This document shows positions 17,188 through 31,962 of a stretch of 48,901 bases of DNA, piece after piece. The stretch lies in contig CAYMBX010000002.1 of assembly GCA_964388785.1 (NCBI GenBank), positions 1 to 48,901 of the forward strand. Direction: 5' to 3'. Below the pieces are notes generated by a model. It made no database searches. It was given only the letters and a program-made list of their open reading frames with translations, and was not told the DNA's origin. This DNA is from an uncultured Gammaproteobacteria bacterium (GTDB lineage: Bacteria; Patescibacteriota; Patescibacteriia; UBA9934; GWF2-40-263). Numbering within the stretch: the first letter of the stretch is position 1; each line of letters opens with the position of its first letter. The translations under genes were made by a program, and so were the position numbers.

Positions 17188-17200
17188 AACAAAGTCACAT

Positions 17201-17224
17201 AAAAAAAGAAGGGCAGGATTGCCC
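17201..17224 (-). terminator. Rho-independent terminator of the lipoprotein gene
   Basis: Minus strand: GGGCA-ATCC-TGCCC followed by TTCTTTTTTT. Confidence 0.6.
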
Positions 17225-17547: not shown

Positions 17548-17592
17548 GGCGGATAGCCTCCTTCTGGTTTGAGTACACCAACACGCGGCTGG

Positions 17593-17621
17593 ATTCTTGC
17601 AGTTTTTCCTGAAAATGTCAA
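17593..17621 (-). promoter_or_regulatory. Sigma-70-type promoter of the lipoprotein gene
   Basis: Minus strand: TTGACA, 17 nt, AAGAAT. Confidence 0.5.
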
Positions 17622-17641
17622 GGAATATGTGATAGGCTGGC

Positions 17642-17670
17642 TTGACCAAAAGAGAAGTTTAATGTACGTT
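17642..17670 (+). promoter_or_regulatory. Sigma-70-type promoter, divergent from the lipoprotein promoter
   Basis: TTGACC, 17 nt, TACGTT. Confidence 0.45.
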
Positions 17671-17736
17671 CATTCCTCAGGATTTTCTTGAGGCCGAGCA
17701 TGGCGGCTGTCCGTGCGGGTGAGGTCGAAGGACGTT

Positions 17737-18105
17737 ATGCATTCTGATGATTCGACTCTGTTTGACGAGGTAGGAACACGGTTGGTACAGGGGAGGCTGT
17801 TCCTCCGACCGGTCCCTCCCGTCCCCGGACGTGAAGATATGCCCCGCACGCTCATCATGGGAGTCGTCGTAGGCGAACAGCTCGTCCTTGATCCCGATGT
17901 CGAGGAGATGATCGAAGTCGAGGTTGAACTACGCGTCAGAAGGCGATTTCGCGACACCATGAGACAGTTCATCGAGCACAGCCACGGCAGCGTGCTGATG
18001 GAATACAACGACGAGCAGCGCTACGGCCAGGTCTGTGAGGCTGACGGCAAAGTGCTGACCGAACGCAAGCCTCGCCAGAGAGGTTCCCTCAAGAAACAAG
18101 CCTGA
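17737..18105 (+). CDS. Hypothetical acidic protein (122 aa from ATG 17737; GTG 17713 is an alternative start)
   Basis: G+C-rich ORF with GAAGGA before ATG 17737 and its own terminator. No motif recognised. Confidence 0.45.
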   Translation: MHSDDSTLFDEVGTRLVQGRLFLRPVPPVPGREDMPRTLIMGVVVGEQLVLDPDVEEMIEVEVELRVRRRFRDTMRQFIEHSHGSVLMEYNDEQRYGQVCEADGKVLTERKPRQRGSLKKQA

Positions 18106-18110
18106 CACGG

Positions 18111-18132
18111 TCGTCCAAAAGGACGATTTTTT
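18111..18132 (+). terminator. Rho-independent terminator
   Basis: TCGTCC-AAAA-GGACGA followed by TTTTTT. Confidence 0.7.
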
Positions 18133-18163
18133 AAAAGCACCTTCACAAAGGAAGGAGATAGCA

Positions 18164-18889
18164 ATGGGAATTGACCTGATTCTGACCCCGTTTAGTCAGA
18201 CGGACGAAGGCGGACGCCTGCTGGATTTGGCGGATCGACTGGCCGAGAAGATCGGGGTTGGTTCGTTCGCACTCGCGGACGTCCCGCTCGGGGAACGAAC
18301 ACAAGAAGTCGTCAAGCGCATACAAGCCCTTCGTGGGTTACGAGTCGTCTATGGCCGCGCCTCAGCGGTTCCGGCAAAGTCCGGGACGCTGTTCATCTCC
18401 AGCGATCCGGTCGACCGTGACGATCTTCTGATCTTAACGCCGGCGGGAGAAACCGAGATCATCCTCTCCTCGGATCGTTGCATGATGATCCCGTTCGGTT
18501 CCCGTGAATCGGGACAGTTCGCGGCGAGACACGCGCTTCCAATCGCCCGACAGATGCGCTTACCGGTTCTCTTTTACCACACCACTTGGAGGAATCCCTC
18601 GGTCGCGGAGCGCCAGCCGAATGCTCATATGGATCCTGGCGCGCGTGCGGTCCTCACAGAGATCACAGAACAGGCAAGTCGTCATCGCGTGAACAGTCGT
18701 GTCGTGGTTGAGTTCGCGGACGATGTCGTCTACGGGATCATCCTGGCGGCCATTCGCGAACGGGCGTCCGTGATCGCTACCGCGCGGGGACTGGAAGTCG
18801 AGCGCGGAAGCTATGCGGAGCGTCTCGTCCGTATGAGCCCGGTGCCGGTTCTGACGGTTGGTCGCAACATCAAGGAGGAGACGCGATGA
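18164..18889 (+). CDS. Two-domain protein with a C-terminal universal stress protein (UspA)-like domain
   Basis: AAGGAGA SD. The C-terminal half (MMIPFGSRESGQFAARHALPIARQMRLPVLFYHT...ASVIATARG...GSYAERLVRMSPVPVLTV) follows the Usp pattern. ATGA overlap with the next gene. Confidence 0.5.
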   Translation: MGIDLILTPFSQTDEGGRLLDLADRLAEKIGVGSFALADVPLGERTQEVVKRIQALRGLRVVYGRASAVPAKSGTLFISSDPVDRDDLLILTPAGETEIILSSDRCMMIPFGSRESGQFAARHALPIARQMRLPVLFYHTTWRNPSVAERQPNAHMDPGARAVLTEITEQASRHRVNSRVVVEFADDVVYGIILAAIRERASVIATARGLEVERGSYAERLVRMSPVPVLTVGRNIKEETR

Positions 18890-20106
18890 AAGGCTTCTTC
18901 CAGAATCCGTACACCGTCATGGGTGTTGTCCTCGCCATGTACGCCGTGAAGGTGGCGGTGAAGCTCATCGTCGGCCACGAGATCAACTCGCCGGTTTTGA
19001 TCGGTGACGGCTTCCACAACGCCGCAGACATCTTCGAGGCACTGCTGGTAATCGCCACGATCTTCTTCTCACGCCTGCCGGATAGCACCCGCTATCCCTT
19101 CGGACGCAAGAACATCGAAAGTCTCTTCTCAGTGGCGGTCGGGCTCGGTCTGTGTCTCATGGCTCTGCGTATTTCACTCGACTCGATCGTTATCCTGGGT
19201 CGACTCGGCGCTTATTGGATCGGTTTTGCCGAGCAAACGGTGAACATCCCGCTCAAGATGGGTGGTCCCTACGGCTGGCTTGCGGCCGGCGTCATGCTCG
19301 GAAGCGCACTGCTTTCCATAAACGTAAGCGCGTATCAGGTACGCATTGGCCGGAAGACCGGGCACCAAGCCTTGGTCGCGGACGGGGAAGAGACGCGCAG
19401 CGACGGCCTCATCGAGACCGCGGCGTTTGCCGGCATCTGCGGCCAATACCTCTTTGGCGTGGCTTGGATGGAGTACGTGATCGCGCTGGTGATCGCCGGC
19501 TTCATGGTTCGGACCGGATGGGAGATCTTCCATCGAGGTCTCGGCGCGCTTCTCCAACGCTCAATCGGGGACGAACACGAGGCGGCGATCCGACAGATCG
19601 TTGAGCGTGTCCCGGGCGTTCGGTCTGTGGCTCAGATCAAGACCTTCCAGACCGGCGAGAAAGTAATCATCATTCTGAAGTTGATCACCATGTCCGACGC
19701 GCATGCCCAGCGCCTGCTCAAGCATGGCATGGTTCCGCTCATCGCCGGATACTTGGCTGAGCAGGAGTTCAGAGACGGGGAGTTTTTTATCCGTTTCGAC
19801 CGACCGGATGCAAAGCGATATCGCACAGCGATCGCACTGCGTAAGGTCGGGGACGGATACGAGATCGCTGACGGCATCGCAGACGCGACACACGTCGCGG
19901 TCTGCGACCATGAGTTCGGAAAGATCGTTCGGGTGACCATACACCCGGCGTATCTCCAGCTCGACGACCTCGTGCGTTTCCTTGCGGTGAAGCGTGTCCG
20001 CACGCTTTTCGTCTTCAACCCAGAGCTCGATCAAGATCGGATTCCAAACACCGACATCGAGCTCGCGATGGCTCTTTCTTTCGTTCCCGCTTCACTTGGC
20101 ATGTGA
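18886..20106 (+). CDS. Cation diffusion facilitator (CDF) family transporter with a roughly 110-aa extra C-terminal domain
   Basis: Six TMs, with SPVLIGDGFHNAADIFEAL and RYPFGRKNIESLFS typical of CDF/FieF. Cytoplasmic domain (IRQIVERVPGVRSVAQIKTFQTGEKVIIIL) followed by an unassigned extension. Confidence 0.7.
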   Translation: MKGFFQNPYTVMGVVLAMYAVKVAVKLIVGHEINSPVLIGDGFHNAADIFEALLVIATIFFSRLPDSTRYPFGRKNIESLFSVAVGLGLCLMALRISLDSIVILGRLGAYWIGFAEQTVNIPLKMGGPYGWLAAGVMLGSALLSINVSAYQVRIGRKTGHQALVADGEETRSDGLIETAAFAGICGQYLFGVAWMEYVIALVIAGFMVRTGWEIFHRGLGALLQRSIGDEHEAAIRQIVERVPGVRSVAQIKTFQTGEKVIIILKLITMSDAHAQRLLKHGMVPLIAGYLAEQEFRDGEFFIRFDRPDAKRYRTAIALRKVGDGYEIADGIADATHVAVCDHEFGKIVRVTIHPAYLQLDDLVRFLAVKRVRTLFVFNPELDQDRIPNTDIELAMALSFVPASLGM

Positions 20107-20119
20107 GCGGGATTTTTGA

Positions 20120-20148
20120 TTGACAAGCAGAGCTTTTTCCTGTACATT
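20120..20148 (+). promoter_or_regulatory. Sigma-70-type promoter of the TPM-domain gene
   Basis: TTGACA, 17 nt, TACATT. Confidence 0.5.
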
Positions 20149-20216
20149 TTTTCCTCTTTTGCACGTTCGTGCATGAGGGAAAACGCACCATTTACTGGTA
20201 CAAGGAGATCGAGTCC

Positions 20217-22772
20217 ATGAGAGCTTTCTTGGCGATACTGAGCCTGCTGGCCGTTGTTTCGACGGCTCAGGCCGGCCCGCTTCCCGCGCCACAGGTTCAC
20301 CCCGGTCGGTTCGTCTACACGATCCCCGGGCATTTCGATCCACCGCTCATCGGACGTGACGGGATCGAAGAGATCCAGGCCGCGCTTTCGGATCTGCACT
20401 ATCCGTACTACGTGGTGCTGGTCGATCGCATTCATGGACCAACCGACGAGCATGCCGCACAGGCGATCGACGGGCTGGTCGAGGACTGGCAGACACAGCG
20501 CGGTTTCGATGTCGCGAAGTCCTCCATCTTCCTGCTGGCTTACGGACCGGAGCGCAAATACCGCTTCTTGGCAGGTGGACGATGGAAGTCGGAACTCGGT
20601 TTCGAGCGCGAGGCTCACAGACCCTACACGCGCATCTTCGAAGAAGCTGTGAAGGGAACTCCCAAAGATCCCAAGGGCGGCATCATCCGCATGGCTCGTG
20701 CCGTGGACGCCTTCCTCTTCGACCAGACCGATCCGGTCCGGATCGCAGAGCGCAGGGCACAGGCCGAGCGTGAGGCGCGTGAACGACAGCAGCGCGAAGC
20801 GCGAGCTGCGCTGGGAGAGCAGATCGGTCGGATGGAACGTCTGCTCAAGAAGACCGATGCGCTCCCCGCGGATGTGAGTGCTCAGAAGGGCGCTCTCGCG
20901 CATGCCCGAGAGATCTGGAACACCGATGACACGGTTGCGATGGGTAACGAGGCCACTGCCTTCAAGCCCGTCGTCGACGAGCTTGATCGTCTCGTGACTG
21001 CCAAGGAGCGGGAGCTGTTCTGGCAGGGTTTCTGGAACTTCGTGTTTTGGTTGACGATCGTTCTGATCATTCTGGGGCTGGTCTTTTGGCTGGTCCTACG
21101 AAGTCGCAAACTCGGGCGTCTGCGTTCAGAGCTCGAGAAGACGCTCGAAACTTGGCGCACGAAGATTCAACGTGCGAGTGCTCGCTACGTCGAGTTCTTC
21201 GGCGAGCGGGACGACATCATGCTGCTACATGATCAGGCAAAAGGCGAGACCGCCGCGCTGCTCAAGAGCGTCACCGATCAGGTCAACAGCATCTTCGTCG
21301 ACGTCCAAGCAATGGAGCAGCACATCACTGAAATCGCCGGGAAGGCGGCGGCTGCGCATTTATTCAACCACGCCCCGCTCATTGCTGCCCTGACGGACCT
21401 GGATGAGCCCTTCGACTTCGACACTGGAGTTCTCAATCCCCACGATCTGTTCGGGGCCGAGACGAAGACCGTCCGCGTGTCGCCGTCCGGGCTTGAGCGT
21501 GATCTGCAGAAGCGATTCGAGAAGGCGATGGAAGGTTGGGGGGAGCTCAAGCAAGCCGCCGAGCTTCAGAGCACGATCGCCGAGGATCATCTCACTCAGG
21601 ATGAGCTCGATGAGCTGTTTGCACAAGCCGACCGCAACGGGATCCCGCGGCGCTGGCTACGTGAGCATCCGCTCTTCGGGGACGATCAGGCCGACGCGGT
21701 CTTCTACGAGCAACTGAACGCGTTGCGCCTGACCGATCCGCTCAAGTTCAAGCGCGAGATCAGTCGCTTCGATGCACTGGAGGAACAGATCGGCGAGCGT
21801 CTCGATGCCTTCTGCAACCTGCTCGCGCAGGTGCGCGAAGTGAAGCGAGATCGGTTCGAGAGTTTGGGGGTGGTGATCGGGAGTGATGACGACCCGAACC
21901 TTACCCTGGATCAGGCACGAACGGCCGAGGACGAACTCGCGAGTGTGCTTCACACGAGTGATACACCCGATGACGTGTACCTGCAGATTCGCCGTGTACA
22001 CGAACTCTACAAGAAGGCGATCGCGCAAGACGCAGCGATTCGTAGCGCGATCGAGCGTCTTGACGGAGTGATCCAGTCGGCGGAGGAGGTGCTTGAGACG
22101 GCACAGACCGACGCGAGAACGGCACAGGACACGCACGAAGCCGCGGTGAAGATCCACAGCAAGGTGGAGTCGCAGTCGTCCATCACGGCCGGCAACGAGA
22201 AGATCGAGACGGGCAGACGCCATCTTGTCCGTGCTCGTGAGCTCAGAAGTACCTCACGTCTGCTCGATGCACTGCGTGCGGCCGAGTCGGCTAAGGTGTC
22301 CTTTGCGGATGCCACCAAGCAGTTCAGCCTCGCAGTCAAGCACTGTGAAGGTCTGGACAAGAAGAAGGCGGAGTTCGAGAAGGAACTCAAGCGGATGGCC
22401 GCAGTGCGCGAGGAGGCGGAGCGCAAGATCCGGGGCTACGGAGGGGTGACCTCTCGTCTCGAAACGTACAGCTCGCCGACGATCAACGGCGTGGCCAACT
22501 ACGCACTGCTGTACGCGGCCATCGAAACGCAGCAGCGGCAGTGGGACGACGAGGTGCGCAGCGCCAAGCGGGCGCACGAAGAGCGTGAAGCCGCGAGGCG
22601 CCGCGCGGAGGAGGAAGAGCGGCGTCGCGAAGCTGCACGTCGACGCGAAGAGGAGCGCCGGCGGAGCTCCTACTCGTCTTCCTCTGGGAGTTCCTGGGGC
22701 GGGGGCGGTAGCTCTTCGTCCGGCGGCTCCTGGGGCGGGGGCGGCAGTTCTTCTTCCGGAGGAAGCTGGTAG
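20217..22772 (+). CDS. Large bitopic protein: signal peptide, TPM-like domain, TM, about 560-aa coiled-coil region, Arg/Glu-rich stretch and Gly/Ser/Trp repeat tail
   Basis: ATG 20217 after AAGGAG. Signal peptide MRAFLAILSLLAVVSTAQA. TPM-like YYVVLVDRIHGPTDEHAAQAIDGLVEDWQ...SSIFLLAYGPERKYRFLAGG. TM at FVFWLTIVLIILGLVFWLVL. Tail SSSGSSWGGGGSSSSGGSWGGGGSSSSGGSW, as in YgcG-type TPM proteins. Confidence 0.6.
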   Translation: MRAFLAILSLLAVVSTAQAGPLPAPQVHPGRFVYTIPGHFDPPLIGRDGIEEIQAALSDLHYPYYVVLVDRIHGPTDEHAAQAIDGLVEDWQTQRGFDVAKSSIFLLAYGPERKYRFLAGGRWKSELGFEREAHRPYTRIFEEAVKGTPKDPKGGIIRMARAVDAFLFDQTDPVRIAERRAQAEREARERQQREARAALGEQIGRMERLLKKTDALPADVSAQKGALAHAREIWNTDDTVAMGNEATAFKPVVDELDRLVTAKERELFWQGFWNFVFWLTIVLIILGLVFWLVLRSRKLGRLRSELEKTLETWRTKIQRASARYVEFFGERDDIMLLHDQAKGETAALLKSVTDQVNSIFVDVQAMEQHITEIAGKAAAAHLFNHAPLIAALTDLDEPFDFDTGVLNPHDLFGAETKTVRVSPSGLERDLQKRFEKAMEGWGELKQAAELQSTIAEDHLTQDELDELFAQADRNGIPRRWLREHPLFGDDQADAVFYEQLNALRLTDPLKFKREISRFDALEEQIGERLDAFCNLLAQVREVKRDRFESLGVVIGSDDDPNLTLDQARTAEDELASVLHTSDTPDDVYLQIRRVHELYKKAIAQDAAIRSAIERLDGVIQSAEEVLETAQTDARTAQDTHEAAVKIHSKVESQSSITAGNEKIETGRRHLVRARELRSTSRLLDALRAAESAKVSFADATKQFSLAVKHCEGLDKKKAEFEKELKRMAAVREEAERKIRGYGGVTSRLETYSSPTINGVANYALLYAAIETQQRQWDDEVRSAKRAHEEREAARRRAEEEERRREAARRREEERRRSSYSSSSGSSWGGGGSSSSGGSWGGGGSSSSGGSW
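22691..22769 (+). repeat. In-frame tandem repeat (36-nt unit, about 2.2 copies) encoding SWGGGGSSSSGG
   Basis: TCCTGGGGCGGGGGCGGTAGCTCTTCGTCCGGCGGC, then TCCTGGGGCGGGGGCGGCAGTTCTTCTTCCGGAGGAAGC. Confidence 0.9.
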
Positions 22773-22789
22773 TCCACCAGCAGCAACAT

Positions 22790-22817
22790 CCAGCGACAAT
22801 ACGGTCGCTGGTTTTTT
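22790..22817 (+). terminator. Rho-independent terminator of the TPM-domain gene
   Basis: CCAGCGAC-AATACG-GTCGCTGG followed by TTTTTT. Confidence 0.7.
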
Positions 22818-22835
22818 GATGTAAATGGCATGCGA

Positions 22836-22865
22836 ATAAAAAACGGACAAGAGTCTACTTGTCCG
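22836..22865 (-). terminator. Rho-independent terminator of the minus-strand four-gene operon
   Basis: Minus strand: CGGACAAG-TAGACT-CTTGTCCG followed by TTTTTTAT. The stem includes the last codons and the stop of the vWA gene. Confidence 0.65.
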
Positions 22866-23862
22866 GAAGAAGAGAGTGGGTGCCGGGGCCGTGCGGCGTT
22901 GTGAGAGATCCTTTGTCCTCTCCGATCAGGGCGATGCTCGCGAGCACGCTCTGGACGTTTGCGGCTCCGTGTCGAGTCGGGAGCTGACGCGATTTCAGAT
23001 GAGAGGTGAACAGATCGAGCTGCCCCGTCTTTGCAGCGATCGTTCCGAGCATGACGTCGACGATGCGTCGTGCGTCCGAGATTGGCACGATCGATTCGTC
23101 CCGCGAAAGCATGTGTTCCCAGTAGGGACGGATCTGTGCGTGTTCGGGACGTCCTTTGTAGGCGTTGGTCTCGAACAGAAGGGTCAGCACATGCATCCGT
23201 CGTTCGAGGGCCCGGAAGACCGCCTGTGCCTGGCTGTACTCCGCATCGAGTTCGAGATCCAGCCAACGCTTTGTCAGTCGCGGATCGACGTGTGCGCATC
23301 CCGCTTCGTCTGTGATGAACCAGACGTAAGCGTGCTGGGCCGTGCGCGTGTCTACCTGCTTGAGCAAGTAGTAGGCAACCAGTTCAGGCGTCTCCGAACC
23401 CTGGCCGCCGCCTCCGCAGTTCAGCGAGAACGACGTCAGTATGCCATCGAGTTCGGCCCCGCGGCCGAAGCGTGCGATCTGTACTGCGTGTTCGTCAGTG
23501 CGAGCGTCTCCGAAGACGATGAACAGAATTTCTGTGTCATCGCTGCCCAGGTATGTGCACGCTTCCTCGTACATGAGTGGAAGACGACGGAAGATTTCTT
23601 TGGGATTGTCGCCCATGGAACCGGTCACATCCGTGATGACGATCAGGACGTTTCGTGCGCTGCTCTTCAGGGTGTGTGTTGCCGTCGGGATCGACTGGAT
23701 CCCCGTCTGATGTGTGGCCTGCGCAAAGCTCACGCGCGACGGTTGCGGTGTGGCCGGCCGTTGGTAGATATTTTTGGCGTCTGAGAATCCACCCATCGCT
23801 GTATGACGCGTTGGCGCGCTCTGATTGTCATCGTTTCTGGCCCAACCAAATGCTCCACTCAT
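22855..23862 (-). CDS. von Willebrand factor type A (vWA) domain protein
   Basis: MIDAS-like VLIVITDVTGSMG (DxTxS), later GGGGQGSETPE and WFITDEAG. About 70-aa low-complexity N-terminus. Start overlaps the kinase stop (ATGA). Confidence 0.7.
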   Translation of the reverse strand: MSGAFGWARNDDNQSAPTRHTAMGGFSDAKNIYQRPATPQPSRVSFAQATHQTGIQSIPTATHTLKSSARNVLIVITDVTGSMGDNPKEIFRRLPLMYEEACTYLGSDDTEILFIVFGDARTDEHAVQIARFGRGAELDGILTSFSLNCGGGGQGSETPELVAYYLLKQVDTRTAQHAYVWFITDEAGCAHVDPRLTKRWLDLELDAEYSQAQAVFRALERRMHVLTLLFETNAYKGRPEHAQIRPYWEHMLSRDESIVPISDARRIVDVMLGTIAAKTGQLDLFTSHLKSRQLPTRHGAANVQSVLASIALIGEDKGSLTTPHGPGTHSLLPDK

Positions 23863-24647
23863 GAGGTTACTCCTCGAAGCCGAAAGGCTTCCGTTGATTG
23901 TGTTCTTCCAAACGCACGTTGGCGTATCTGTGTTAGTTGCCGATTGAGTACGCGCGCATCCTGGGGGCGTGCGAGCGGATCGCGTCGAATCATCGAAGCG
24001 ATCAATGCACGAAGATCGGTATGCATGTCCGTAGGCAAACTTCCGTTAAGAATGTTGCCACCGGAGATGAACACAGCCGTCATTCCGAGCGAGTAGAGAT
24101 CGCTCGCCGGAATCGGGGGAAGGGATTGTTGGAATTCTGGTGGAAGATAGAACGGTGTTCCGCCTTTGGCTTGCGAACGGGCGTTCGGGTCCTGGAGCGA
24201 AAGACCGAAGTCGACGAGCACCGCGTTGTGGACGGGAATATCAAGGACGATATTGGCCGGCTTGATGTCGCAATGGACAATCCGATGGAAGTGCAAATAG
24301 CTCAATGCATCCAACACGCGCTGGAGGATCCAACAGATGTGTTCATCGTCGATCGCTCCTTGTTCGCTCACGATCTTTTGCAGATTGTCACCCGCAATGA
24401 ATGACATGACGGCAACCGCGCCGTAATCAGATGTTTCTAGATACTCCTTGAGGGTGGGGAGAGAGGCGTGGTGGATGTTCCAAAGAAGCTTGGCTTCCTC
24501 GCGGAAGAGCCGAATATACGTGGGATTACCGGTTTTTTCTTGCTTGATGCAGACGGGTTCACGCAGGAGTCGGTGTCGTCCTAGAAACGTCCGACCGAAC
24601 GCCCCTTCCGTGATTTTGTGTTCAACCGTGTAGGATCCGATGTTCAT
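23859..24647 (-). CDS. Hanks-type Ser/Thr protein kinase, catalytic domain only, non-RD (HCD)
   Basis: ITEGAFGRTF (Gly loop), VCIKQ (catalytic Lys), HRIVHCDIKPANIVL, VDFGLS, GTPFYLPPE. 262 aa with no TM or sensor domain. Confidence 0.85.
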   Translation of the reverse strand: MNIGSYTVEHKITEGAFGRTFLGRHRLLREPVCIKQEKTGNPTYIRLFREEAKLLWNIHHASLPTLKEYLETSDYGAVAVMSFIAGDNLQKIVSEQGAIDDEHICWILQRVLDALSYLHFHRIVHCDIKPANIVLDIPVHNAVLVDFGLSLQDPNARSQAKGGTPFYLPPEFQQSLPPIPASDLYSLGMTAVFISGGNILNGSLPTDMHTDLRALIASMIRRDPLARPQDARVLNRQLTQIRQRAFGRTQSTEAFRLRGVTS

Positions 24648-25246
24648 GCTTGTCTCCGAAGCCGTTTGATCGAACGTGTGAGATTGCGCTTTGCGCGCGC
24701 CTCCAAACGATTGTGTAGATCTTGTGTGTGGAAAATCGGATCACGTGCCAGAAAGCGGCTGAGGATGCAGAGCCGGGCTTCACGGAATTGATCATCCGGG
24801 ACGAAACCGTACTCTTTGCGGATGTTGGTTTCGTAGCGACCGAACGTACGCACATCAGCGCCGAGAATCGACAGATCTATGTCGATGAGTAAACGTGTGT
24901 CCGACTGTGCCGGAACGCCCGTGTGCATCGTCGCCATAATGAGCGCGTATACCCGCGGCGACTTCAGGAGTGTCTGGGAGAGTTCTGCACTCCGTTGTTC
25001 GTTGTCGTGTCGGCTGGGATCGTAGATCGCGTCGTGGAACCACCAGGCGAGCTCGAGCAGATCCGGTGCTTTTGCGAGATGACGAATTCGATCGAGTTCT
25101 GTCAGCCCATGTTCGATATGTTCGAATGTATGGTAGTGACGGTGGGACTCGCGGTAGTGTTCGACAAGTCGGCGAAACCACGTATGCGCATCACCACTTA
25201 GACCCAGTGCACACCACAGTCGAATCCATCGTTGTGTCATGTTCAT
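24644..25246 (-). CDS. HD-superfamily metal-dependent phosphohydrolase (COG4339-like)
   Basis: WIRLWCALG...LVEHYRESHRHYHTFEHIEH...LAWWFHDAIYD is the pattern of the small predicted HD hydrolases often mis-annotated as an NMDA receptor subunit. Confidence 0.6.
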   Translation of the reverse strand: MNMTQRWIRLWCALGLSGDAHTWFRRLVEHYRESHRHYHTFEHIEHGLTELDRIRHLAKAPDLLELAWWFHDAIYDPSRHDNEQRSAELSQTLLKSPRVYALIMATMHTGVPAQSDTRLLIDIDLSILGADVRTFGRYETNIRKEYGFVPDDQFREARLCILSRFLARDPIFHTQDLHNRLEARAKRNLTRSIKRLRRQA

Positions 25247-26418
25247 AGAACCTCCAGGGTGGGGAATAGGGTTGTACGAATGGTCGTGAGTAGTTGCGCG
25301 ATTCGATCGTGGGCGTCCACAGAGACACGGTTATCAAATGTCAGAATCTGACCGTGGCCGTTCGCATCCACATGTCGCTGTAGCTGGTTGACCTTCCGCT
25401 CCACGCTCCACTGCAGTTCGGCCATTCGCGCCAGCTGCTGTACCTCAATGCCGCGACGCTCTGCGAGTTGGGCGCGATCGCTTGACTCAACTACGAGGAC
25501 ATTGTGGTTAGTCCAATGACTCACGTGCATCTCGGCAAGCTGCGCCCATTCGATCAGGATCAGACCACGGGCGTTCGACAGTGCGGTTCGTTGCAAACGT
25601 TGCACGTGCGGTCGCACGTGCATTTCCACCTGTCTGCGCAATTGGCTTGGTGTCTGGGGATCGAACAGGACGGAAGCCATTGCTGTGCGATCGATCTCAC
25701 ATCCATTCGCCGTCAGGATTCTTGGTCCTAACAGGCGTCCCAGTTCTTCGCGCAATCGTTGAGCCCCCGGCGTCTGTTCGCGGTATAGATCACGGATGAG
25801 CTGGTCCACATTGATCAAATGGACGGGAAGACCGACCGCTCGTGCTTGTTCTGCAAGTTGTGCACAAACCCAGGTTTTCCCTGTAGCGATTTCACCGGTG
25901 ATACCCAATTTGAACTGTTTGTGCATGCGTTCCTCGATTGCTTGCTTCACAAACACGGGTACCATCGTCGAGATGTCTGCGTGGTGGCTCGCAAAGGCTT
26001 TGACGAGTGTCGAGGAAATGTGACGAAAATCCGGTGCAGAAGGCAGATAGACTACTGCATCCGCGAGCGAAGGGTGGATCATTGTGTGATAGCTCATTTG
26101 TTCTTCTTCATAACGTTGATCCGATTCATTGCGGATACCGCGATAGAGGACGTCGCATCCCTGCTCCAGAAAGACATCAACTAACAGTCCGCGCGAACAC
26201 ACGACAGACACCGTGGGCAGGTGTGCGGTCGCGCGTGCTGCCATGGCCATTCGTTCCTCCAGAGAAAAGAGATACGTGCCTTTCTTGTTGTCATTGTTTG
26301 CGATGAGGACAAGAAGTTCTCGGCAGCAATGTCGTGCCGAGTCAATCAGATGGAGATGACCGTTCGTGATCGGATCGGCGGAAAGGACGACTAATCCTTT
26401 GTGGTGATCGGCGCTCAT
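25243..26418 (-). CDS. Fusion protein: phosphopantetheine adenylyltransferase (CoaD-like) plus dephospho-CoA kinase (CoaE-like)
   Basis: N-domain VVLSADPITNGHLHLID (HxGH class) and HISSTLVK (ISST). C-domain LGITGEIATGKTWV P-loop in CoaE context (INVDQLIRDLY...). First gene of the overlapping operon. Confidence 0.75.
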   Translation of the reverse strand: MSADHHKGLVVLSADPITNGHLHLIDSARHCCRELLVLIANNDNKKGTYLFSLEERMAMAARATAHLPTVSVVCSRGLLVDVFLEQGCDVLYRGIRNESDQRYEEEQMSYHTMIHPSLADAVVYLPSAPDFRHISSTLVKAFASHHADISTMVPVFVKQAIEERMHKQFKLGITGEIATGKTWVCAQLAEQARAVGLPVHLINVDQLIRDLYREQTPGAQRLREELGRLLGPRILTANGCEIDRTAMASVLFDPQTPSQLRRQVEMHVRPHVQRLQRTALSNARGLILIEWAQLAEMHVSHWTNHNVLVVESSDRAQLAERRGIEVQQLARMAELQWSVERKVNQLQRHVDANGHGQILTFDNRVSVDAHDRIAQLLTTIRTTLFPTLEVL

Positions 26419-26534
26419 GATGCCTCCAGGTTGTAAGGAGCTAATCGCAGCATAAATCGAATAGCAAAATTGAGGGCGTTATCTGCTCATTTCAATTGAC
26501 TTTTTTTCAAATCGTTGGACTTTTTGTTTAAATT

Positions 26535-26554
26535 TTGACGAAAATTTTCGTCAA
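26535..26554. promoter_or_regulatory. Perfect 20-bp palindrome TTGACGAAAATTTTCGTCAA (candidate operator, also a -35-like TTGACG)
   Basis: Exact self-complementarity. Lies 8 nt upstream of the TrmB-family regulator start codon. Confidence 0.6.
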
Positions 26555-26561
26555 CAGTAGC

Positions 26562-27320
26562 ATGTTCTCTATGCCCACTTCCGTAGAAACACTTCTGAAG
26601 GATCTGCACCTGACCGAAAAAGAAACCACGGTGTATCTCGCTTCTTTGCATTTGGGTGAAGCGACGATTCAACAGATCGCACACAAGGCGAAGTTGCCAC
26701 GTACGACCGTCGCCAGTATTTTGAGTCGTCTCAAAGAGTTGGGATATGTGACCGCGCACCGATCAAAAGGGAAGTTGATGTATTGGATCGAAGATCCGCA
26801 TGTGCTTGTGGAACAGGAACGTGCGAGGTTTGACGTCGTTGAACAACTTGCCGCTCAACTCCACACGCAGTACCACAGTGCAGATAAAACACCACAGGCA
26901 TTTGTCTACGATACAAAAGAGGCACTGACGAATATGATCGTGAAAGTAGTCGATGAACTGAATAAAGGCGACGAAATTCTTGTATTTGAAGCACCAGCCG
27001 GGGAACATTATCAAGCGGTCATCTCAGACGAACTTTTTCGATCGCTTGCGGAAAAGAAGATGAAGCGTGGCGTTCGTACGCGTGCACTGATCCCTGGGGC
27101 ACAGAAATCGTTTGTTCGTGCATGGACACCCAAATATAACGTCTTTCTTCGGACACTTCCGGCCGGATTAGGATTCGATTTCTCCCTATGGATTTTTCAC
27201 AACTCCATTGTGTTATTTTCAGGAACACACACGTTTGCCGTTCGTATCAATCATCGTCACATGAAAGAGAGCATGGCCTCTTTGTTCGAACATTTTTGGG
27301 AAATAGCGGGACCTGTTTAG
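26562..27320 (+). CDS. TrmB-family transcriptional regulator
   Basis: N-terminal wHTH: LLKDLHLTEKETTVYLASLHLGEATIQQIAHKAKLPRTTVASILSRLKELGYV. ATG 26562 preferred over TTG 26535, which lies inside the palindrome. Confidence 0.7.
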   Translation: MFSMPTSVETLLKDLHLTEKETTVYLASLHLGEATIQQIAHKAKLPRTTVASILSRLKELGYVTAHRSKGKLMYWIEDPHVLVEQERARFDVVEQLAAQLHTQYHSADKTPQAFVYDTKEALTNMIVKVVDELNKGDEILVFEAPAGEHYQAVISDELFRSLAEKKMKRGVRTRALIPGAQKSFVRAWTPKYNVFLRTLPAGLGFDFSLWIFHNSIVLFSGTHTFAVRINHRHMKESMASLFEHFWEIAGPV

Positions 27321-27428
27321 CGTTTTACTGTCTGTTCGACATTTGTTCGTGTCATGTGTTATGATATTGGCACAACAAATCTGATCCCACCCCTAGGGTA
27401 GAACAACCCGAGGGGACATTCTGGTTTT

Positions 27429-29435
<2,007 letters not shown>

Positions 29436-29438
29436 GAT

Positions 29439-31952
29439 ATGCATGACAAAATCACCATCAAAGGGGCACGGGAACATAATCTCAAAAATATTTCGCTTGA
29501 GCTGCCGCGCAACAAGCTGATTTGCATAACAGGCGTCTCGGGTTCAGGCAAATCCAGTTTAGCCTTCGATACGATTTTTGCGGAAGGACAACGTCGTTAT
29601 GTGGAATCATTATCCGCGTACGCGCGGCAATTTTTGGGACAGATGGAAAAGCCGGATGTCGATGAAATCGAAGGATTGTCGCCTGGGATTTCGATCGACC
29701 AAAAAGCGCATTCCAACAATCCTCGATCAACCGTGGCAACCATTACCGAGATTTATGATTATTTGCGCGTGCTCTACGCCCGTGTCGGACAGCCGCACTG
29801 CGTGAAATGTAAATCCGTGATTCAGAAATTGACGAACGAAGAAATGGTGGATGTGGTGCTGGAGGGAATAGAGAGTAGACAAGCGGTAAAGGGAGGAAAA
29901 GGAAATATCAAAATTCTTGCGCCGGTGGTGCTTGGACGCAAAGGGGAGTATTACCAACTGCTTTACGATCTGTATAATAGCGGTTTTGCGCGCGTGCGTA
30001 TCGACGGAAAAGAACATCGGTTAGATCAGTCGATTAAACTTGCGCGTTATCAACAGCATACGATTGAGGTGGTGATTGACACGATTCCCATTGGACAAGA
30101 CAAGGCGTTTCGTCAGCGATTGGCTGAGGCGCTGGAAACAGCAGTGGAGCGAGGGAACGATGTCGCGACCATTGTCTATCCGGATGGGATCGAGCAGATG
30201 CTTTCCTCAAAATTCAGCTGCCCTAAGGACGGATTTTCCTTTCCGGAAATCGAACCACGTCTGTTTTCGTTCAATTCTCCTTATGGAGCTTGTTCGCAGT
30301 GTACGGGGCTTGGAACGGCAGAATTGTTTAGTGAAGAATTGTGTGGAAAGTGTTCCGGCGCTCGGCTTCGCGAGGAAGCGTTGCATGTTTGGTTGCCGAC
30401 CGCCGTTTCGATTGTCGATGTCACAAAGATGTCCATCGATGAGGCGGGAACGTATTTTCAATCCATCACGCTGACAGAAAAACAAAGAGAAATCTCGAGT
30501 TCTATCCTCAAAGAGATTCAAAGTCGCCTGCAATTTATGCTGGACGTGGGCTTGCACTATCTCACACTCGACCGTATGGCCGGTACGCTTTCAGGCGGGG
30601 AAGCACAGCGGATTCGTCTGGCGTCCCAAGTTGGGACGCGGCTCGTCGGCGCAATGTATGTACTCGATGAACCGACCATTGGCTTACATCAGCGCGATAA
30701 TGATCGTCTCATCCAAACACTCGAACAACTGCGTGATGCCGGGAATACCGTCATTGTCGTCGAGCACGATGAAGATACCATTCTTGCGTCTGACTATATG
30801 GTTGAAATCGGGCCGGGTGCCGGAATTCACGGCGGACAGGTGATTGCGGCCGGGACAACACCGAAAATTTTTGAAGACAAGAAATCGCTTACCGCTGCCT
30901 ATTTGCGTGGAGATGAAAAGATCCCTATTCCAGCAGAACGTCGAACTGTCGGGAAAGATGCGATTAAAATAAAGGGTGCGTCCCAGAATAACCTGAAAAA
31001 TATTGATGTCGAAATTCCACTTCGTCGGTTTGTGTGTGTGACCGGCGTGTCTGGATCCGGGAAATCAACATTGGCTTACGAAACAATGTATAAAGCGATC
31101 GCCAAACGTCTGTACGGAAGCAAACATACTCCAGGAACTCACAGGTCACTTCTAGGAATTGAATATATCGACAAAGCGATTCTCATCGACCAATCGGCCA
31201 TTGGAAGAACGTCTCGATCCAATCCGGCAACGTACACGGGTGCGTGGGGACCCATTCGAGAACTGTTCGCCGCAACGGCCGAAGCGCGATATCGAGGGTA
31301 TAAGCCGGGTCGTTTCAGTTTTAATAGACCTGGCGGTCGATGCGAACATTGCGAGGGGCACGGCGTCATTGCGATTGAAATGCACTTTCTCCCGACGGTG
31401 TATGTGAAATGCGATGTGTGCAAAGGTCGGCGATTTGATCGTGAAACGCTTGAAATAGAGTACAAAGAAAAAAATATCTACCAAGTGCTAGAAATGACGA
31501 TTGAAGAGGCGGCGGAATTTTTTAAAGATATTCCTTTTGTCTATGACAAACTTTCCACTCTCAATGAGGTCGGTTTATCGTATGTAAAACTTGGGCAGCC
31601 TGCACCAACACTTTCGGGCGGGGAAGCGCAACGCGTCAAATTGGCGACAGAACTCGCTAAGCGTCAAACGGGTCGTACCCTCTACTTACTTGACGAACCA
31701 ACGACAGGTTTGCATTTTGCAGACGTTAAAAAATTGCTTGAAGTTCTGCATACGCTCGTCGACAAAGGAAATAGTGTGATTGTGATCGAGCATAACTTGG
31801 ACGTGATTAAAACCGCAGATTGGCTCATTGATCTTGGGCCGGAAGGTGGGGATTTGGGAGGGAAGGTGGTCTATGCCGGCACGCCGGAGGAAGTGGCGCG
31901 GCATGCAAAAAGTTATACAGGACAATATCTCAAGCGAATGCTGAAAAAATGA
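29439..31952 (+). CDS. uvrA: Excinuclease ABC subunit A, short form (837 aa) lacking the insertion domain
   Basis: Two ABC modules ([12 protein letters not shown]; [12 protein letters not shown]; LSGGEAQR twice). UvrB-binding region present. Only 9 residues (TAELFSEEL) separate CSQCTGLG from CGKCSGARL, where E. coli UvrA has over 100 aa. Confidence 0.9.
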
Positions 31953-31962
31953 ACGTGGAACA

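What the first reader, a model, noticed from the sequence alone, without database searches (positions are those of the whole stretch)
22855..26418. Overlapping four-gene operon: PPAT-DPCK fusion / HD hydrolase / minimal non-RD Ser-Thr kinase / vWA protein
Four minus-strand CDSs are chained by 4-nt ATGA overlaps (25243-25246, 24644-24647, 23859-23862), with one terminator at the distal end, so they form a single co-translated unit. The order is:
(i) A CoaD-like HxGH nucleotidyltransferase (DPITNGHLHLI, ISSTLV) fused to a CoaE-like P-loop kinase (GITGEIATGKT).
(ii) A 200-aa COG4339-type HD hydrolase (HRHYHTFEHI, WWFHDAIYD).
(iii) A 262-aa kinase-domain-only Hanks kinase with HCD instead of HRD, and no TM or sensor.
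(iv) A vWA protein with a DxTxS MIDAS and a low-complexity N-terminus.
vWA plus Ser/Thr kinase plus a phosphoesterase is the logic of the TerY-P triad (vWA TerY, PP2C, STK). Anantharaman, Iyer and Aravind tied that triad to nucleoside-like metabolite production and stress/conflict responses. Here PP2C is replaced by an HD enzyme and the module is welded to an adenylyltransferase-kinase fusion. I do not know a described system with this composition. It may be a phosphorylation-gated nucleotide/cofactor-modifying or cofactor-derived signalling module rather than plain CoA synthesis.
Basis: partly seen in the sequence, partly recalled or inferred. Interest (0 to 1): 0.78.

Follow-up and report, generated by a model that had tools for sequence, protein, structure and literature searches.

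The report
CoA synthase operon with kinase–vWA pair
A small-genome (Patescibacteria) bacterium co-transcribes its two-step coenzyme A synthase with an HD hydrolase and a protein kinase plus vWA adaptor protein; that kinase–vWA pair is an undescribed module found mostly in very large phages, always next to a metabolic enzyme.

Summary
Four minus-strand genes are joined by ATGA overlaps and end in one terminator hairpin. They encode a PPAT–DPCK fusion, an HD-superfamily hydrolase, a 262-aa non-RD Hanks kinase and a vWA/MIDAS protein.

Comparative data change the interpretation.

- **Conserved core.** The core is fusion → kinase → vWA. It recurs in Uhrbacteria, Moranbacteria and other Patescibacteria, and in phage-like contigs.
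- **HD gene.** It is not part of the kinase/vWA module. It is absent from most trio loci, yet it sits next to CoaD(E) genes that have no kinase or vWA. It is an independent partner of the CoA enzyme.
- **Kinase–vWA dyad.** The vWA family has about 1,450 clusters at 50% identity and includes Bixzunavirus gp261 (phrog_2971). All 43 distinct assessable loci have a kinase directly upstream. The third partner was CoaDE (22 loci) or a minimal pyruvate-kinase-like enzyme (19 loci), never both.
- **TerY-P.** Its defining features are not met.

Best reading: a bacterial COASY-like CoA salvage enzyme placed under a phage-type kinase/vWA-adaptor module, with an accessory HD enzyme. The mechanism is inferred, not shown. 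I found no description of this module. Interest is moderate to high.

The parts
25243..26418 (-). Bifunctional PPAT (CoaD, about aa 1-168, window 25915-26418) fused to DPCK (CoaE, about aa 169-391, window 25246-25914). First gene of the operon.
   Evidence: TIGR01510 scores 114.1 bits (cutoff 103.3) and Pfam CoaE 49.4 bits (cutoff 27). PDB matches are PPAT at 6e-26 and DPCK at 4.7e-9. Catalytic residues are conserved across 61 homologues.
24644..25246 (-). HD-superfamily phosphohydrolase (COG4339-like, 200 aa). An accessory, independently recurring partner of CoaD(E).
   Evidence: R36, H39, H43, H71-D72, D122 and D124 are invariant. There are 2,314 homologues. The AF2 model has pLDDT 96 and an HD-like all-alpha fold. 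It matches phrog_19425 'phosphohydrolase'. It lies next to CoaD(E) in loci without kinase or vWA.
23859..24647 (-). Kinase-domain-only, non-RD (HCD) Hanks-type Ser/Thr protein kinase.
   Evidence: Pkinase scores 111 bits. Best PDB matches are CaMK, AMPK and PknA. The Gly-loop, the catalytic Lys, the alphaC Glu, H[C/G]D-KPxN, DFG and GT..PPE are conserved in 44 orthologues.
22855..23862 (-). Cytoplasmic vWA/MIDAS protein. It has an invariant N-terminal MSGxFGW peptide, a disordered linker, a helical C-terminal extension and a conserved C-terminal [TK]xxLL tail.
   Evidence: AF2 model pLDDT 87, with Foldseek matches to vWA domains. Conservation is shown. It matches phrog_2971 at 1e-17. hhalign against Bixzunavirus gp261 gives 99.7% probability.
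22844..22865 (-). Terminator-like hairpin followed by a T-run, overlapping the vWA stop codon.
   Evidence: A second hairpin at 22790-22811 (+) serves the convergent gene.
26423..26443 (-). Operon 5' region. It holds a conserved motif TAGnTC(C/T)TTACAAC (26430-26443) and the GGAGG ribosome-binding site (26423-26427).
   Evidence: The sequence is. The motif is conserved upstream of the fusion gene in L001, L002, L008 and L010. Its function is untested.
26535..26554 (.). Perfect 20-nt palindrome TTGACGAAAATTTTCGTCAA in the divergent intergenic region. Candidate operator of the TrmB-like regulator.
   Evidence: A similar TGACGA..TCGTCA repeat occurs in L008 and L010.
26535..27320 (+). Divergently transcribed TrmB-family wHTH regulator. 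It neighbours the trio in cellular loci but not in viral ones. The true start is probably about 10-12 codons downstream of the listed TTG.
   Evidence: Pfam TrmB 7e-12. It lies adjacent to the trio in 15 distinct cellular loci, in two different arrangements.

Best explanation
This is a chromosomal operon of a Patescibacteria (Uhrbacteria-like) bacterium with three functional layers.

**1. The enzyme.** The first gene encodes a catalytically intact PPAT-DPCK fusion. It is a bacterial counterpart of eukaryotic CoA synthase (COASY). It would convert scavenged 4'-phosphopantetheine into dephospho-CoA and then into CoA.

**2. The HD partner.** The HD phosphohydrolase is an accessory enzyme of that same pathway. 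It recurs next to CoaD(E) genes whether or not a kinase is present. It probably hydrolyses a nucleotide or phosphopantetheine-containing compound. It may supply substrate, or it may clear an adenylyltransferase by-product, as the HD enzyme YqeK does beside NadD.

**3. The kinase-vWA dyad.** The non-RD Hanks kinase and the vWA protein form an obligate two-protein module. The module is mostly phage-borne. I propose that the vWA protein is the kinase's adaptor or regulatory subunit. Its MIDAS face and its conserved disordered terminal peptides would dock kinase and target together. The most likely target is the co-encoded metabolic enzyme, so CoA synthesis would come under phosphorylation control. 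In the sister phage clade, the same dyad, with a J-domain on the kinase, sits next to a minimal pyruvate-kinase-like enzyme instead.

**Shown:** gene structure, domain and fold identities, intact catalytic residues, and co-conservation patterns.

**Inferred:** the substrates of the fusion and of HD, physical kinase-vWA association, and the identity of the kinase's target.
For: **Fusion is a real PPAT-DPCK.** Scores pass the curated cutoffs and the PDB matches are PPAT and DPCK. Catalytic residues are conserved in both the kinase-linked and the unlinked clades of 61 fusions. The fusion stands alone in Kerfeldbacteria and other contigs.

**HD pairs with CoaD(E) independently.** It is adjacent in 7 of 24 kinase-free loci and 5 of 24 loci too short to assess. 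It overlaps the fusion's stop codon in L026.

**The dyad is obligate.**
- All 43 distinct vWA loci with at least 1 kb of upstream sequence carry a same-strand kinase within 3 kb. In about half of them the gap is under 20 nt.
- The kinase keeps all catalytic motifs plus the GT..PPE P+1/APE segment typical of protein kinases.

**The third partner is a metabolic phosphotransfer enzyme.** It is CoaDE in 22 loci and PK-like in 19, never both.

**vWA as adaptor.**
- The MIDAS residues are intact. The termini are disordered and carry clade-conserved peptides.
- Some family members carry a C-terminal U-box or NUDIX domain, which suggests a scaffold for modifying activities.

**Kinase-linked fusions form one clade.** A few unlinked members are nested inside it, which points to long co-evolution with occasional loss.

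**Translational coupling.** ATGA overlaps join all four genes.
Against: - There is no direct evidence that the kinase phosphorylates the fusion or the vWA protein. No kinase-linked-clade-specific Ser/Thr site was found in the fusion; His111 came closest to tracking linkage (88% of kinase-linked fusions, 12% of unlinked fusions of the same clade, none in the other clade), and the other clade-specific positions were shared with the unlinked members.
- In some phage loci, one to five small genes separate the fusion or kinase from the vWA gene. In Bixzunavirus the dyad has neither CoaDE nor a PK-like neighbour, and its kinase looks catalytically dead. So the dyad may act on other, for example host, targets.
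- Close fusion homologues work without the dyad.
- The CoaE domain scores below the TIGR00152 equivalog cutoff (41 versus 65.55).
- Whether the genome lacks other coaD, coaE or panK genes cannot be judged from a 49-kb window.
Confidence: 0.45

Rival explanations
1. The kinase-vWA dyad is an autonomous, phage-derived host-takeover or conflict module that acts on other cellular proteins. It is merely co-transcribed with CoaDE or the PK-like gene, as auxiliary metabolic genes in one expression cassette, with no regulatory link between them.
For: - The dyad is widespread in phage-like contigs, huge phages and cultured Bixzunaviruses.
- In Bixzunavirus it has neither third partner.
- Phage kinases carry a J-domain, which suggests host Hsp70 recruitment.
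- Some vWA members carry a U-box.
- The window kinase gives strong domain-level hits to the defence kinases PD-T4-6 and Mad6.
Against: - In 41 of 43 assessable distinct loci, a CoaDE or PK-like gene sits directly beside the dyad, in a fixed order within each clade.
- In cellular genomes the trio keeps stable chromosomal synteny with TrmB, uvrB and CDF genes, and its genes overlap at start and stop codons.
- Kinase-linked fusions form a co-evolving clade.
- No defence-island context is present.
Confidence: 0.27
2. One reading: a TerY-P-like triad (vWA + STK + phosphoesterase) in which HD replaces PP2C. The adenylyltransferase-kinase fusion would make or modify a nucleotide or cofactor-derived signal rather than plain CoA.
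For: - vWA and STK co-occur, as in TerY-P.
- Phage loci place the trio near NAD/ADP-ribose and RNA-repair genes: NADAR, NUDIX, PARP, RtcB and NAD kinase.
- His111 is favoured in kinase-linked fusions where the unlinked clade has Asn.
- A calcineurin-like phosphoesterase follows the vWA gene in L023 and lies near the trio in L019.
Against: - HD is absent from most trio loci and is linked to CoaD(E) on its own.
- PADLOC and Pfam give no TerY or VWA hit for the vWA protein. There is no PP2C, and the kinase has no zinc ribbon or OB fold.
- The CoaD domain passes the equivalog cutoff, and all PPAT and DPCK catalytic residues are kept, as in stand-alone fusions.
Confidence: 0.1
3. The Hanks-fold enzyme is a small-molecule kinase, a pantetheine or pantothenate kinase. 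The operon would then encode a complete three-step salvage route: kinase, then PPAT, then DPCK.
For: - The order of chemistry would match the CoA pathway.
- Eukaryotic-like kinase folds include small-molecule kinases. Weak APH, ABC1 and RIO hits are seen.
- These reduced genomes are not known to carry a PanK near the locus.
Against: - Best matches are bona fide protein kinases.
- The GT..PPE (P+1/APE), DxYSxG and subdomain XI Arg motifs typical of protein-substrate kinases are conserved.
- The same kinase clade accompanies a PK-like enzyme and carries a J-domain in phages. That does not fit pantetheine phosphorylation.
- The model gives the obligate vWA partner no role.
Confidence: 0.06

Closest known systems
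Eukaryotic CoA synthase (COASY), the bifunctional PPAT/DPCK
   Same: One polypeptide has the same two activities in the same order, PPAT then DPCK. It catalyses the last two steps of CoA synthesis and allows salvage from 4'-phosphopantetheine. COASY is also reported to be regulated through kinase signalling (my own knowledge).
   Different: Here the PPAT half is the bacterial CoaD type (TIGR01510, 38% identical to E. coli CoaD as recalled from memory). The fusion is therefore independent of COASY. The partners here are a dedicated operon-encoded kinase and vWA protein.
TerY-P triad: TerY-like vWA + PP2C + STK-ZnR/OB (Anantharaman et al. 2012; Gao et al. 2020, as summarised in PMC11090510)
   Same: A cytoplasmic vWA/MIDAS protein is encoded next to a Hanks-type Ser/Thr kinase. 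The proposed logic is a phosphorylation switch.
   Different: There is no PP2C. The kinase has no zinc ribbon or OB fold. The vWA protein does not match the TerY, VWA or PADLOC models. The gene order and third partner (CoaDE or PK-like) differ. HD is not a stand-in for the phosphatase.
Bixzunavirus (Bxz1-like mycobacteriophage) gp260 'Ser/Thr kinase' and gp261 hypothetical protein (phrog_2971)
   Same: gp261 is a true homologue of the window vWA protein (hhalign 99.7%, E 4e-26). It is directly preceded by a kinase-fold gene.
   Different: The phage kinase lacks the catalytic Asp and the DFG motif, so it is likely a pseudokinase. No CoaDE or PK-like gene is adjacent. Both proteins are annotated only as kinase and hypothetical, and no function is known.
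PrkA/YeaG - YeaH/YhbH (DUF444) - SpoVR/YcgB stress and sporulation operon
   Same: A Ser kinase is encoded next to a vWA-like protein. DUF444 is the only Pfam family that gives recurrent, weak hits to this vWA family (12 of 42 members, best 4.3e-5).
   Different: PrkA is an AAA+/kinase-like protein, not a Hanks kinase. The DUF444 similarity is confined to about 30 residues around the MIDAS strand. No SpoVR homologue was seen.
NadD-YqeK: an HxGH adenylyltransferase paired with an HD-domain Ap4A hydrolase (my own knowledge)
   Same: An HD phosphohydrolase gene recurs next to an HxGH-family cofactor adenylyltransferase gene.
   Different: The HD family here is COG4339-like, not COG1713. The adenylyltransferase is CoaD, not NadD. 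The substrate of this HD enzyme is unknown.
MoxR-vWA adaptor systems (RavA-ViaA, CbbQ-CbbO, NorQ-NorD)
   Same: A soluble vWA/MIDAS protein serves as the target-binding adaptor for a partner enzyme that acts on a specific metabolic enzyme. An AAA_5 MoxR-like gene lies beside the dyad in L096.
   Different: The partner here is a protein kinase, not an AAA+ ATPase.

Membership tests
Phosphopantetheine adenylyltransferase (CoaD, TIGR01510) | Score above the curated equivalog cutoff over the full domain | tested here: met
   114.1 bits against a cutoff of 103.3, covering residues 13-164. Thirty-four PDB PPAT sequences match, at E down to 6e-26.
Phosphopantetheine adenylyltransferase (CoaD, TIGR01510) | (T/H)xGH nucleotidyltransferase motif, the conserved Lys and Arg residues, and the ISxT motif | tested here: met
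   DPITNGH (H21), K45, R93/G94/R96 and S135-S136-T are conserved in at least 85% of both fusion clades.
Phosphopantetheine adenylyltransferase (CoaD, TIGR01510) | Enzymatic activity on 4'-phosphopantetheine | not testable with these tools
   Needs biochemistry.
Dephospho-CoA kinase (CoaE, PF01121 / TIGR00152) | Profile match above the curated cutoff | tested here: inconclusive
   Pfam CoaE scores 49.4 bits (cutoff 27) across profile positions 3-174 of 180. The TIGR00152 equivalog scores 41.3 bits, below its 65.55 cutoff. PDB DPCK matches are 2grj at 4.7e-9 and 2if2 at 1.9e-6.
Dephospho-CoA kinase (CoaE, PF01121 / TIGR00152) | Walker A P-loop and the catalytic Asp after strand 2 | tested here: met
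   GITGEIATGKT: G175, G180 and K181 are invariant and T174 nearly invariant in the 30-sequence alignment; T174, G175 and K181 are also conserved in ≥85% of both fusion clades. D205 (INVDQL) is invariant in the 30-sequence alignment.
HD-superfamily metal-dependent phosphohydrolase | H...HD...D metal-binding motif | tested here: met
   H39, H43, H71-D72, D122 and D124 are invariant in 30 homologues.
HD-superfamily metal-dependent phosphohydrolase | Match to a curated HD profile (Pfam PF01966 or an NCBIfam model) | tested here: not met
   No Pfam or NCBIfam hit, even at E up to 10. It matches only phrog_19425 'phosphohydrolase' at 1.9e-27 and carries source names.
HD-superfamily metal-dependent phosphohydrolase | All-alpha HD fold | tested here: inconclusive
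   The model has pLDDT 96. The best PDB matches are HD-fold cyclic-nucleotide phosphodiesterases and the HD protein 2pjq, with query-normalised TM-scores of 0.5-0.6 but Foldseek E-values of only 0.09-0.5.
Hanks-type (eukaryotic-like) Ser/Thr protein kinase | Pkinase profile above the cutoff, plus Gly-loop, VAIK Lys, alphaC Glu, HxD-KxxN, DFG and APE | tested here: met
   111.1 bits against a cutoff of 31.7. EGAFGR, VCIK, EEA, HCDIKPAN, DFG and GTPFYLPPE are conserved in the family.
Hanks-type (eukaryotic-like) Ser/Thr protein kinase | RD class (Arg before the catalytic Asp) | tested here: not met
   The motif is HCD in almost all kinases of the CoaDE-linked clade (HGD in L038/L039, HLD in L022) and HGD in all kinases of the phage clade; none has Arg, so the family is non-RD.
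von Willebrand factor A (vWA) domain | Rossmann-like vWA fold | tested here: met
   AF2 gives pLDDT 87 and pTM 0.82. There are 188 PDB matches at E up to 1e-3, led by integrin beta-I, SpaC and CMG2 vWA domains. BFVD matches are VWFA proteins, at E down to 9e-12.
von Willebrand factor A (vWA) domain | MIDAS motif: DxSxS, then a Thr or acidic residue, then Asp | tested here: met
   In the 42-sequence alignment of the CoaDE-linked clade, D78-x-T80-x-S82, G151/G153/E157 and T184-D185-E186 are invariant. In the PK-like phage clade the first MIDAS strand and the Glu are likewise conserved, and T184 is usually Gly, giving GDE.
von Willebrand factor A (vWA) domain | Match to a Pfam VWA-clan profile | tested here: not met
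   The window protein has no hit. Family members give only weak DUF444 hits (12 of 42) and VWA_4 hits (2 of 42).
TerY-P triad | TerY-like vWA protein | tested here: not met
   No PADLOC hit at E up to 1 and no Pfam VWA or TerY hit.
TerY-P triad | PP2C-like phosphatase in the operon | tested here: not met
   No PP2C was detected in the four operon genes or the three flanking genes scanned in the window, and none appears in the precomputed Pfam tables of the related loci. The HD gene is not a conserved member of the kinase/vWA module.
TerY-P triad | STK fused at its C-terminus to a zinc ribbon or OB fold | tested here: not met
   The 262-aa protein is kinase domain only. The definition comes from PMC11090510.
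PrkA/YeaG-YeaH(DUF444)-SpoVR module | DUF444 vWA-like protein | tested here: inconclusive
   DUF444 scores 0.13 for the window protein. It hits 12 of 42 family members, best 4.3e-5, over about 30 residues only. All scores are below the gathering cutoff.
PrkA/YeaG-YeaH(DUF444)-SpoVR module | PrkA-type AAA+/kinase protein and a SpoVR partner | tested here: not met
   The kinase is a Hanks Pkinase. No PrkA or SpoVR family appears in any locus table.
Known anti-phage defence kinases (PD-T4-6, Mad6; PADLOC) | Full-length match to a defence-system protein, and the system context | tested here: inconclusive
   Kinase-domain-level hits are strong (mad6 3.8e-36, PD-T4-6 1.1e-34). Only the kinase domain aligns. 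No partner genes or defence-island context are present.

The most novel reading that the evidence does not exclude
The kinase-vWA dyad would be a previously unrecognised, portable enzyme-control cassette of large phages. It has about 1,450 protein clusters and includes cultured Bxz1-like mycobacteriophages. The cassette would bolt onto key ATP-dependent metabolic enzymes, CoA synthase or a minimal pyruvate kinase, and switch them by MIDAS-guided phosphorylation. Patescibacteria would have domesticated it to gate their only CoA-making step.

A more radical variant is also not excluded. The three activities would act in series on the vWA protein's invariant N-terminal Ser:
1. The kinase phosphorylates the Ser.
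2. The CoaD-like domain adenylylates the phospho-Ser.
3. The CoaE-like domain adds a 3'-phosphate.

The product would be a protein-linked CoA-like nucleotide.
Probability: 0.15. Interest if true: 0.85.

Novelty: new variant of a known kind. Interest (0 to 1): 0.62.

Why it matters
- **CoA supply in reduced genomes.** Patescibacteria depend on scavenged cofactor precursors. A single PPAT-DPCK polypeptide under dedicated kinase control would be the first indication of how such cells regulate CoA supply. It would also be a bacterial parallel to the regulation of eukaryotic COASY.
- **A new phage module.** The work defines a large kinase-vWA dyad that has no functional annotation (phrog_2971). It is always next to a metabolic enzyme in huge phages and is also present in cultured mycobacteriophages, so genetics in M. 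smegmatis is feasible.
- **A lead for an orphan enzyme family.** The widespread COG4339-like HD family has more than 2,300 members and is often mis-annotated as an 'NMDA receptor subunit'. Its recurring adjacency to CoaD(E) is the first functional lead I could find for it.

Tried and rejected
1. **TerY-P membership** was rejected on its three defining features.
2. **HD as the protein phosphatase of the module** was rejected, because HD is absent from most trio loci and is independently linked to CoaD(E).
3. **Small-molecule (pantetheine) kinase** was judged unlikely from the protein-kinase motifs and the phage contexts.
4. **A second coaD or coaE in the window** was not found. The small CTP_transf_like genes near the trio in L001 and L004 are NMNAT-like, not CoaD.
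5. **A riboswitch or other known RNA in the operon or its leader** was not found: no Rfam match at E up to 1.
6. **The convergent 867-aa coiled-coil/GS-rich neighbour as part of the module** was rejected, because it is not conserved in any related locus.
7. **A kinase-linked-only Ser/Thr site in the fusion** was not found.
8. **Context of a proteobacterial HD homologue** (Pseudoxanthomonas) was uninformative.
9. **Literature searches** for the combination, for COG4339, and for CoA synthesis in CPR found nothing relevant. The jumbo-phage survey PMC7824862 mentions only MoxR-vWA and TerF vWA proteins.
10. **The first metagenome scan**, using the 30-sequence fusion alignment, failed because the alignment was too diverse. 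It was repeated with 12 sequences.
11. **Sequence-only PDB searches** for the HD and vWA proteins found nothing, so structures were predicted instead.

Full report
**1. Observation**

The window carries four consecutive minus-strand ORFs:
- 25243-26418 (391 aa)
- 24644-25246 (200 aa)
- 23859-24647 (262 aa)
- 22855-23862 (335 aa)

Each junction is a 4-nt ATGA overlap. A GGAGG lies 5 nt upstream of the first ATG. A G+C-rich hairpin followed by a T-run overlaps the last stop codon, at 22865-22844 on the minus strand.

The rest of the window is ordinary bacterial chromosome. It holds uvrA, uvrB, uvrC, CysRS, a Mur ligase, a MacB-type transporter and four tRNAs. The closest relatives of every operon gene except HD come from Patescibacteria MAGs.

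**2. The four proteins**

*Fusion.* Residues 13-164 score 114 bits on the CoaD equivalog model, above the cutoff of 103. They match 34 solved PPATs, at E down to 6e-26. Residues 170-352 match Pfam CoaE over nearly the whole profile and two solved dephospho-CoA kinases. They stay below the stricter TIGR00152 cutoff. The PPAT residues (SADPxTxGH, K45, R93/G94/R96, D100, E104, S135-S136) and the DPCK residues (T174, G175, K181, R223, R322) are conserved in at least 85% of members of both major clades of this fusion family.

*HD protein.* No curated profile detects it. It has more than 2,300 homologues. Sources name them 'predicted metal-dependent HD superfamily phosphohydrolase', 'HD domain-containing protein' or, wrongly, 'NMDA receptor subunit'. 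The H..H..HD..D..D residues are invariant. The AF2 model has pLDDT 96 and is an all-alpha bundle. Its nearest solved folds are HD-type phosphodiesterases, but only at TM about 0.6 and with non-significant E-values. The closest homologues are about 50% identical. Those that carry an organism name are proteobacterial; the Uhrbacteria copy is 41% identical.

*Kinase.* It is a complete, minimal Hanks kinase (Pkinase 111 bits). Its best solved matches are CaMK1, AMPK, MST and PknA. An alignment of 44 orthologues shows the Gly-loop, catalytic Lys, alphaC Glu, H[C/G]D-KPxN, D[FLY]G, the GT..PPE P+1/APE segment, DxYSxG and the subdomain XI Arg all conserved. The family is non-RD throughout. These are hallmarks of a protein kinase, not a small-molecule kinase.

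*vWA protein.* It has no Pfam hit and no sequence-level PDB hit. With a 42-sequence alignment, AF2 gives pLDDT 87 and pTM 0.82. Foldseek returns 188 vWA-type PDB matches at E up to 1e-3, including integrin beta-I, SpaC and CMG2, and VWFA proteins in the viral library. The MIDAS residues (D78xT80xS82, G151/G153/E157, T184-D185-E186) are invariant. Residues 1-22 are predicted disordered, yet they begin with an invariant MSGxFGW. The C-terminus ends in a conserved [TK]xxLL tail.

**3. What is co-conserved**

I fetched loci in three ways: around vWA homologues, around fusion homologues and around distant vWA relatives. I then scored all of them by tblastn. Four results follow.

(a) *The trio.* Every one of 43 distinct vWA loci with at least 1 kb of upstream sequence has a same-strand kinase within 3 kb. 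In about half of them the gap is under 20 nt. In 22 of them a CoaD(-CoaE) gene lies just upstream, in the order fusion → kinase → vWA. These loci come from several sources:
- Uhrbacteria, Moranbacteria/Moraniibacteriota and other Patescibacteria.
- One probably mis-binned 'Bdellovibrionales' MAG.
- IMG/VR contigs of 81-536 kb.
- Phage-like Logan contigs rich in small same-strand ORFs, with RtcB, RNA ligase, NADAR, NUDIX, PARP and DNA methylases.

(b) *The HD gene.* The four-gene arrangement of the window recurs only in the Uhrbacteria GWE2_40_58 type (L002, L003, L047). Elsewhere HD lies downstream of the vWA gene (L014, L015, L018), 5 kb upstream of the fusion gene (L001), or is absent. It is absent from all CoaDE-linked viral loci. 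Conversely, HD sits directly next to CoaD(E) genes that have no kinase or vWA. This holds for 7 of 24 assessable loci and 5 of 24 short ones. In L026 it overlaps the fusion's stop codon, and in L048 it lies upstream. HD is thus an independent partner of the CoA enzyme. It is not the 'phosphatase' of a kinase/vWA triad.

(c) *The fusion alone.* The fusion occurs without the dyad in Kerfeldbacteria and many other contigs. In a neighbour-joining tree of 61 fusions, all kinase-linked ones fall in one clade with a few unlinked members nested inside. The other clade is unlinked or linked only to HD.

(d) *The regulator.* A TrmB-family regulator is adjacent in 15 distinct cellular loci, in two different arrangements, but not in viral loci. 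The divergent intergenic region carries a perfect 20-nt palindrome that has counterparts in related loci.

**4. The dyad is a large, mainly phage-borne family**

A profile of the vWA family, searched against 1.84 billion cluster representatives, found 1,447 proteins at E up to 1e-3 and 250 at E up to 1e-30. I sampled distant members: three by direct contig look-up (four contigs) and 18 IMG/VR contigs of 46-485 kb.
- All are preceded by an orthologous kinase, 37-39% identical to the window kinase, which usually carries an N-terminal J-domain.
- All are followed by a conserved protein of roughly 300-370 aa. This protein keeps the pyruvate-kinase barrel motifs KIE..G and ARGDLxxExP.
- None of them has a CoaDE gene.

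More than 140 cultured Bixzunavirus (Bxz1-like) mycobacteriophage records carry a remote homologue. It is gp261 in phage Sebata (phrog_2971, 'unknown function'; hhalign 99.7%). It lies directly after gp260, annotated 'Ser/Thr kinase', which lacks the catalytic Asp and the DFG motif.

Some family members end in a U-box or a NUDIX domain. The recurring picture is a vWA scaffold tied to a protein-modifying activity and placed beside a metabolic phosphotransfer enzyme.

**5. Most likely mechanism**

I read the fusion as a bona fide CoA synthase for 4'-phosphopantetheine salvage, analogous to COASY. I read HD as an accessory hydrolase of the same pathway. A possible analogy, from my own knowledge, is the HD Ap4A hydrolase YqeK beside NadD.

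I read the kinase and vWA protein as an adaptor-plus-kinase module. The MIDAS face and the conserved terminal peptides would bring kinase and target together. The adjacent enzyme is the most probable target.

- *Shown:* identities, intact catalytic sites and co-conservation.
- *Inferred:* substrates, complex formation and the kinase's target.

I give this reading 0.45. The chief rival (0.27) is that the dyad acts on other, host, proteins and is only co-expressed with auxiliary metabolic genes. The Bixzunavirus context and the intervening small genes in some phage loci support that rival. The TerY-P/signal-nucleotide model (0.10) and the pantetheine-kinase model (0.06) are weaker.

**6. Comparison with known systems and novelty**

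TerY-P fails all three of its defining features. The PrkA-YeaH-SpoVR module shares only the idea of a kinase plus a vWA protein, and a weak DUF444 signal. MoxR-vWA systems share the adaptor logic.

I found no paper describing the trio, the dyad or the HD-CoaD link. All the domains are known kinds, so I class this as a new variant of a known kind, namely kinase/vWA signalling pairs coupled to a cofactor enzyme.

**7. Limits**

- Only about 45 vWA loci and 72 CoaD/fusion loci could be examined.
- Pattern-based retrieval biases which loci were found.
- The viral status of the IMG/VR contigs was not independently verified.
- Genome-wide CoA gene content could not be assessed.
- No complex modelling or biochemistry was possible.

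Noticed in passing
L096-L117 (for example L096 5997-9163; L099 6002-9154): A conserved triad occurs in huge-phage and IMG/VR contigs (46-485 kb): J-domain Ser/Thr kinase → vWA (phrog_2971-like) → minimal pyruvate-kinase-like barrel protein. All 22 fetched loci (19 distinct) have this order. It appears undescribed.
   Followed up: partly
L118 (Mycobacterium phage Sebata NC_041993.1, gp260-gp261, locus 3664-5795): More than 140 cultured Bixzunavirus phage records carry the kinase-fold + vWA dyad. The 'Ser/Thr kinase' has HGA and DWC in place of HxD and DFG, so it is probably a pseudokinase. A PurA-like gene and a polynucleotide kinase lie nearby.
   Followed up: partly
P0340, P0342, P0372, P0328, P0376: Some members of the vWA family carry a C-terminal U-box (E3-ligase-like) domain, and one carries a NUDIX domain. 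Their genomic origin is unknown because the contigs are short.
   Followed up: no
L026, L048, L051-L053, L056, L065, L069, L070, L074, L075, L079, L084/L085, L089, L094: A COG4339-like HD phosphohydrolase gene recurs next to CoaD or CoaD-CoaE fusion genes in lineages without the kinase/vWA pair. This is a functional lead for an uncharacterised HD family. An HD homologue also lies 1.4 kb upstream of the PK-type triad in L116.
   Followed up: partly
window 26535-26554 and 26430-26443: A perfect 20-nt palindrome, TTGACGAAAATTTTCGTCAA, lies between the operon and the TrmB-like gene. A conserved TAGnTC(C/T)TTACAAC motif lies upstream of the fusion start. Both have counterparts in related loci. The listed TTG start of the TrmB ORF lies inside the palindrome and is probably too early.
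   Followed up: partly
window 16000-24000 versus 26000-34000: Composition is heterogeneous. The CDF transporter, the 867-aa neighbour and the vWA gene have GC 0.59-0.62 (GC3 0.68-0.73). The fusion, HD and kinase genes have GC 0.53-0.54. TrmB, uvrB and uvrA have GC 0.47-0.49.
   Followed up: no
window 20169-22772 (+): A convergent 867-aa protein has an N-terminal hydrophobic segment, a long Glu/Arg/Ala-rich, probably coiled-coil region (judged by eye, not tested) and a Gly/Ser/Trp-rich repetitive tail (SSSGGSWGGGG). It has no family match and no homologue in any related locus.
   Followed up: partly
window 15804-17030 (+); L001 3804-5036: A 408-aa protein has an unassigned N-terminal half and a C-terminal HxGH nucleotidyltransferase domain (CTP_transf_like, residues 244-357). 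A similar 410-aa protein with the same domain layout (homology to the window protein not directly tested) sits next to the TrmB gene in L001. Small NMNAT-like genes flank the trio in L001 and L004.
   Followed up: partly
L023 11325-12131; L019 5094-5942: A calcineurin-like (Metallophos) phosphoesterase gene lies directly after the vWA gene in one CoaDE-linked viral locus and a few kb upstream in another. It could be a phosphatase partner of the kinase.
   Followed up: no
window 34781-39889 and 39825-41588: There is a 1,702-aa bacterial alpha-2-macroglobulin-like protein, followed by a Memo-like + PGA_cap fusion protein.
   Followed up: no
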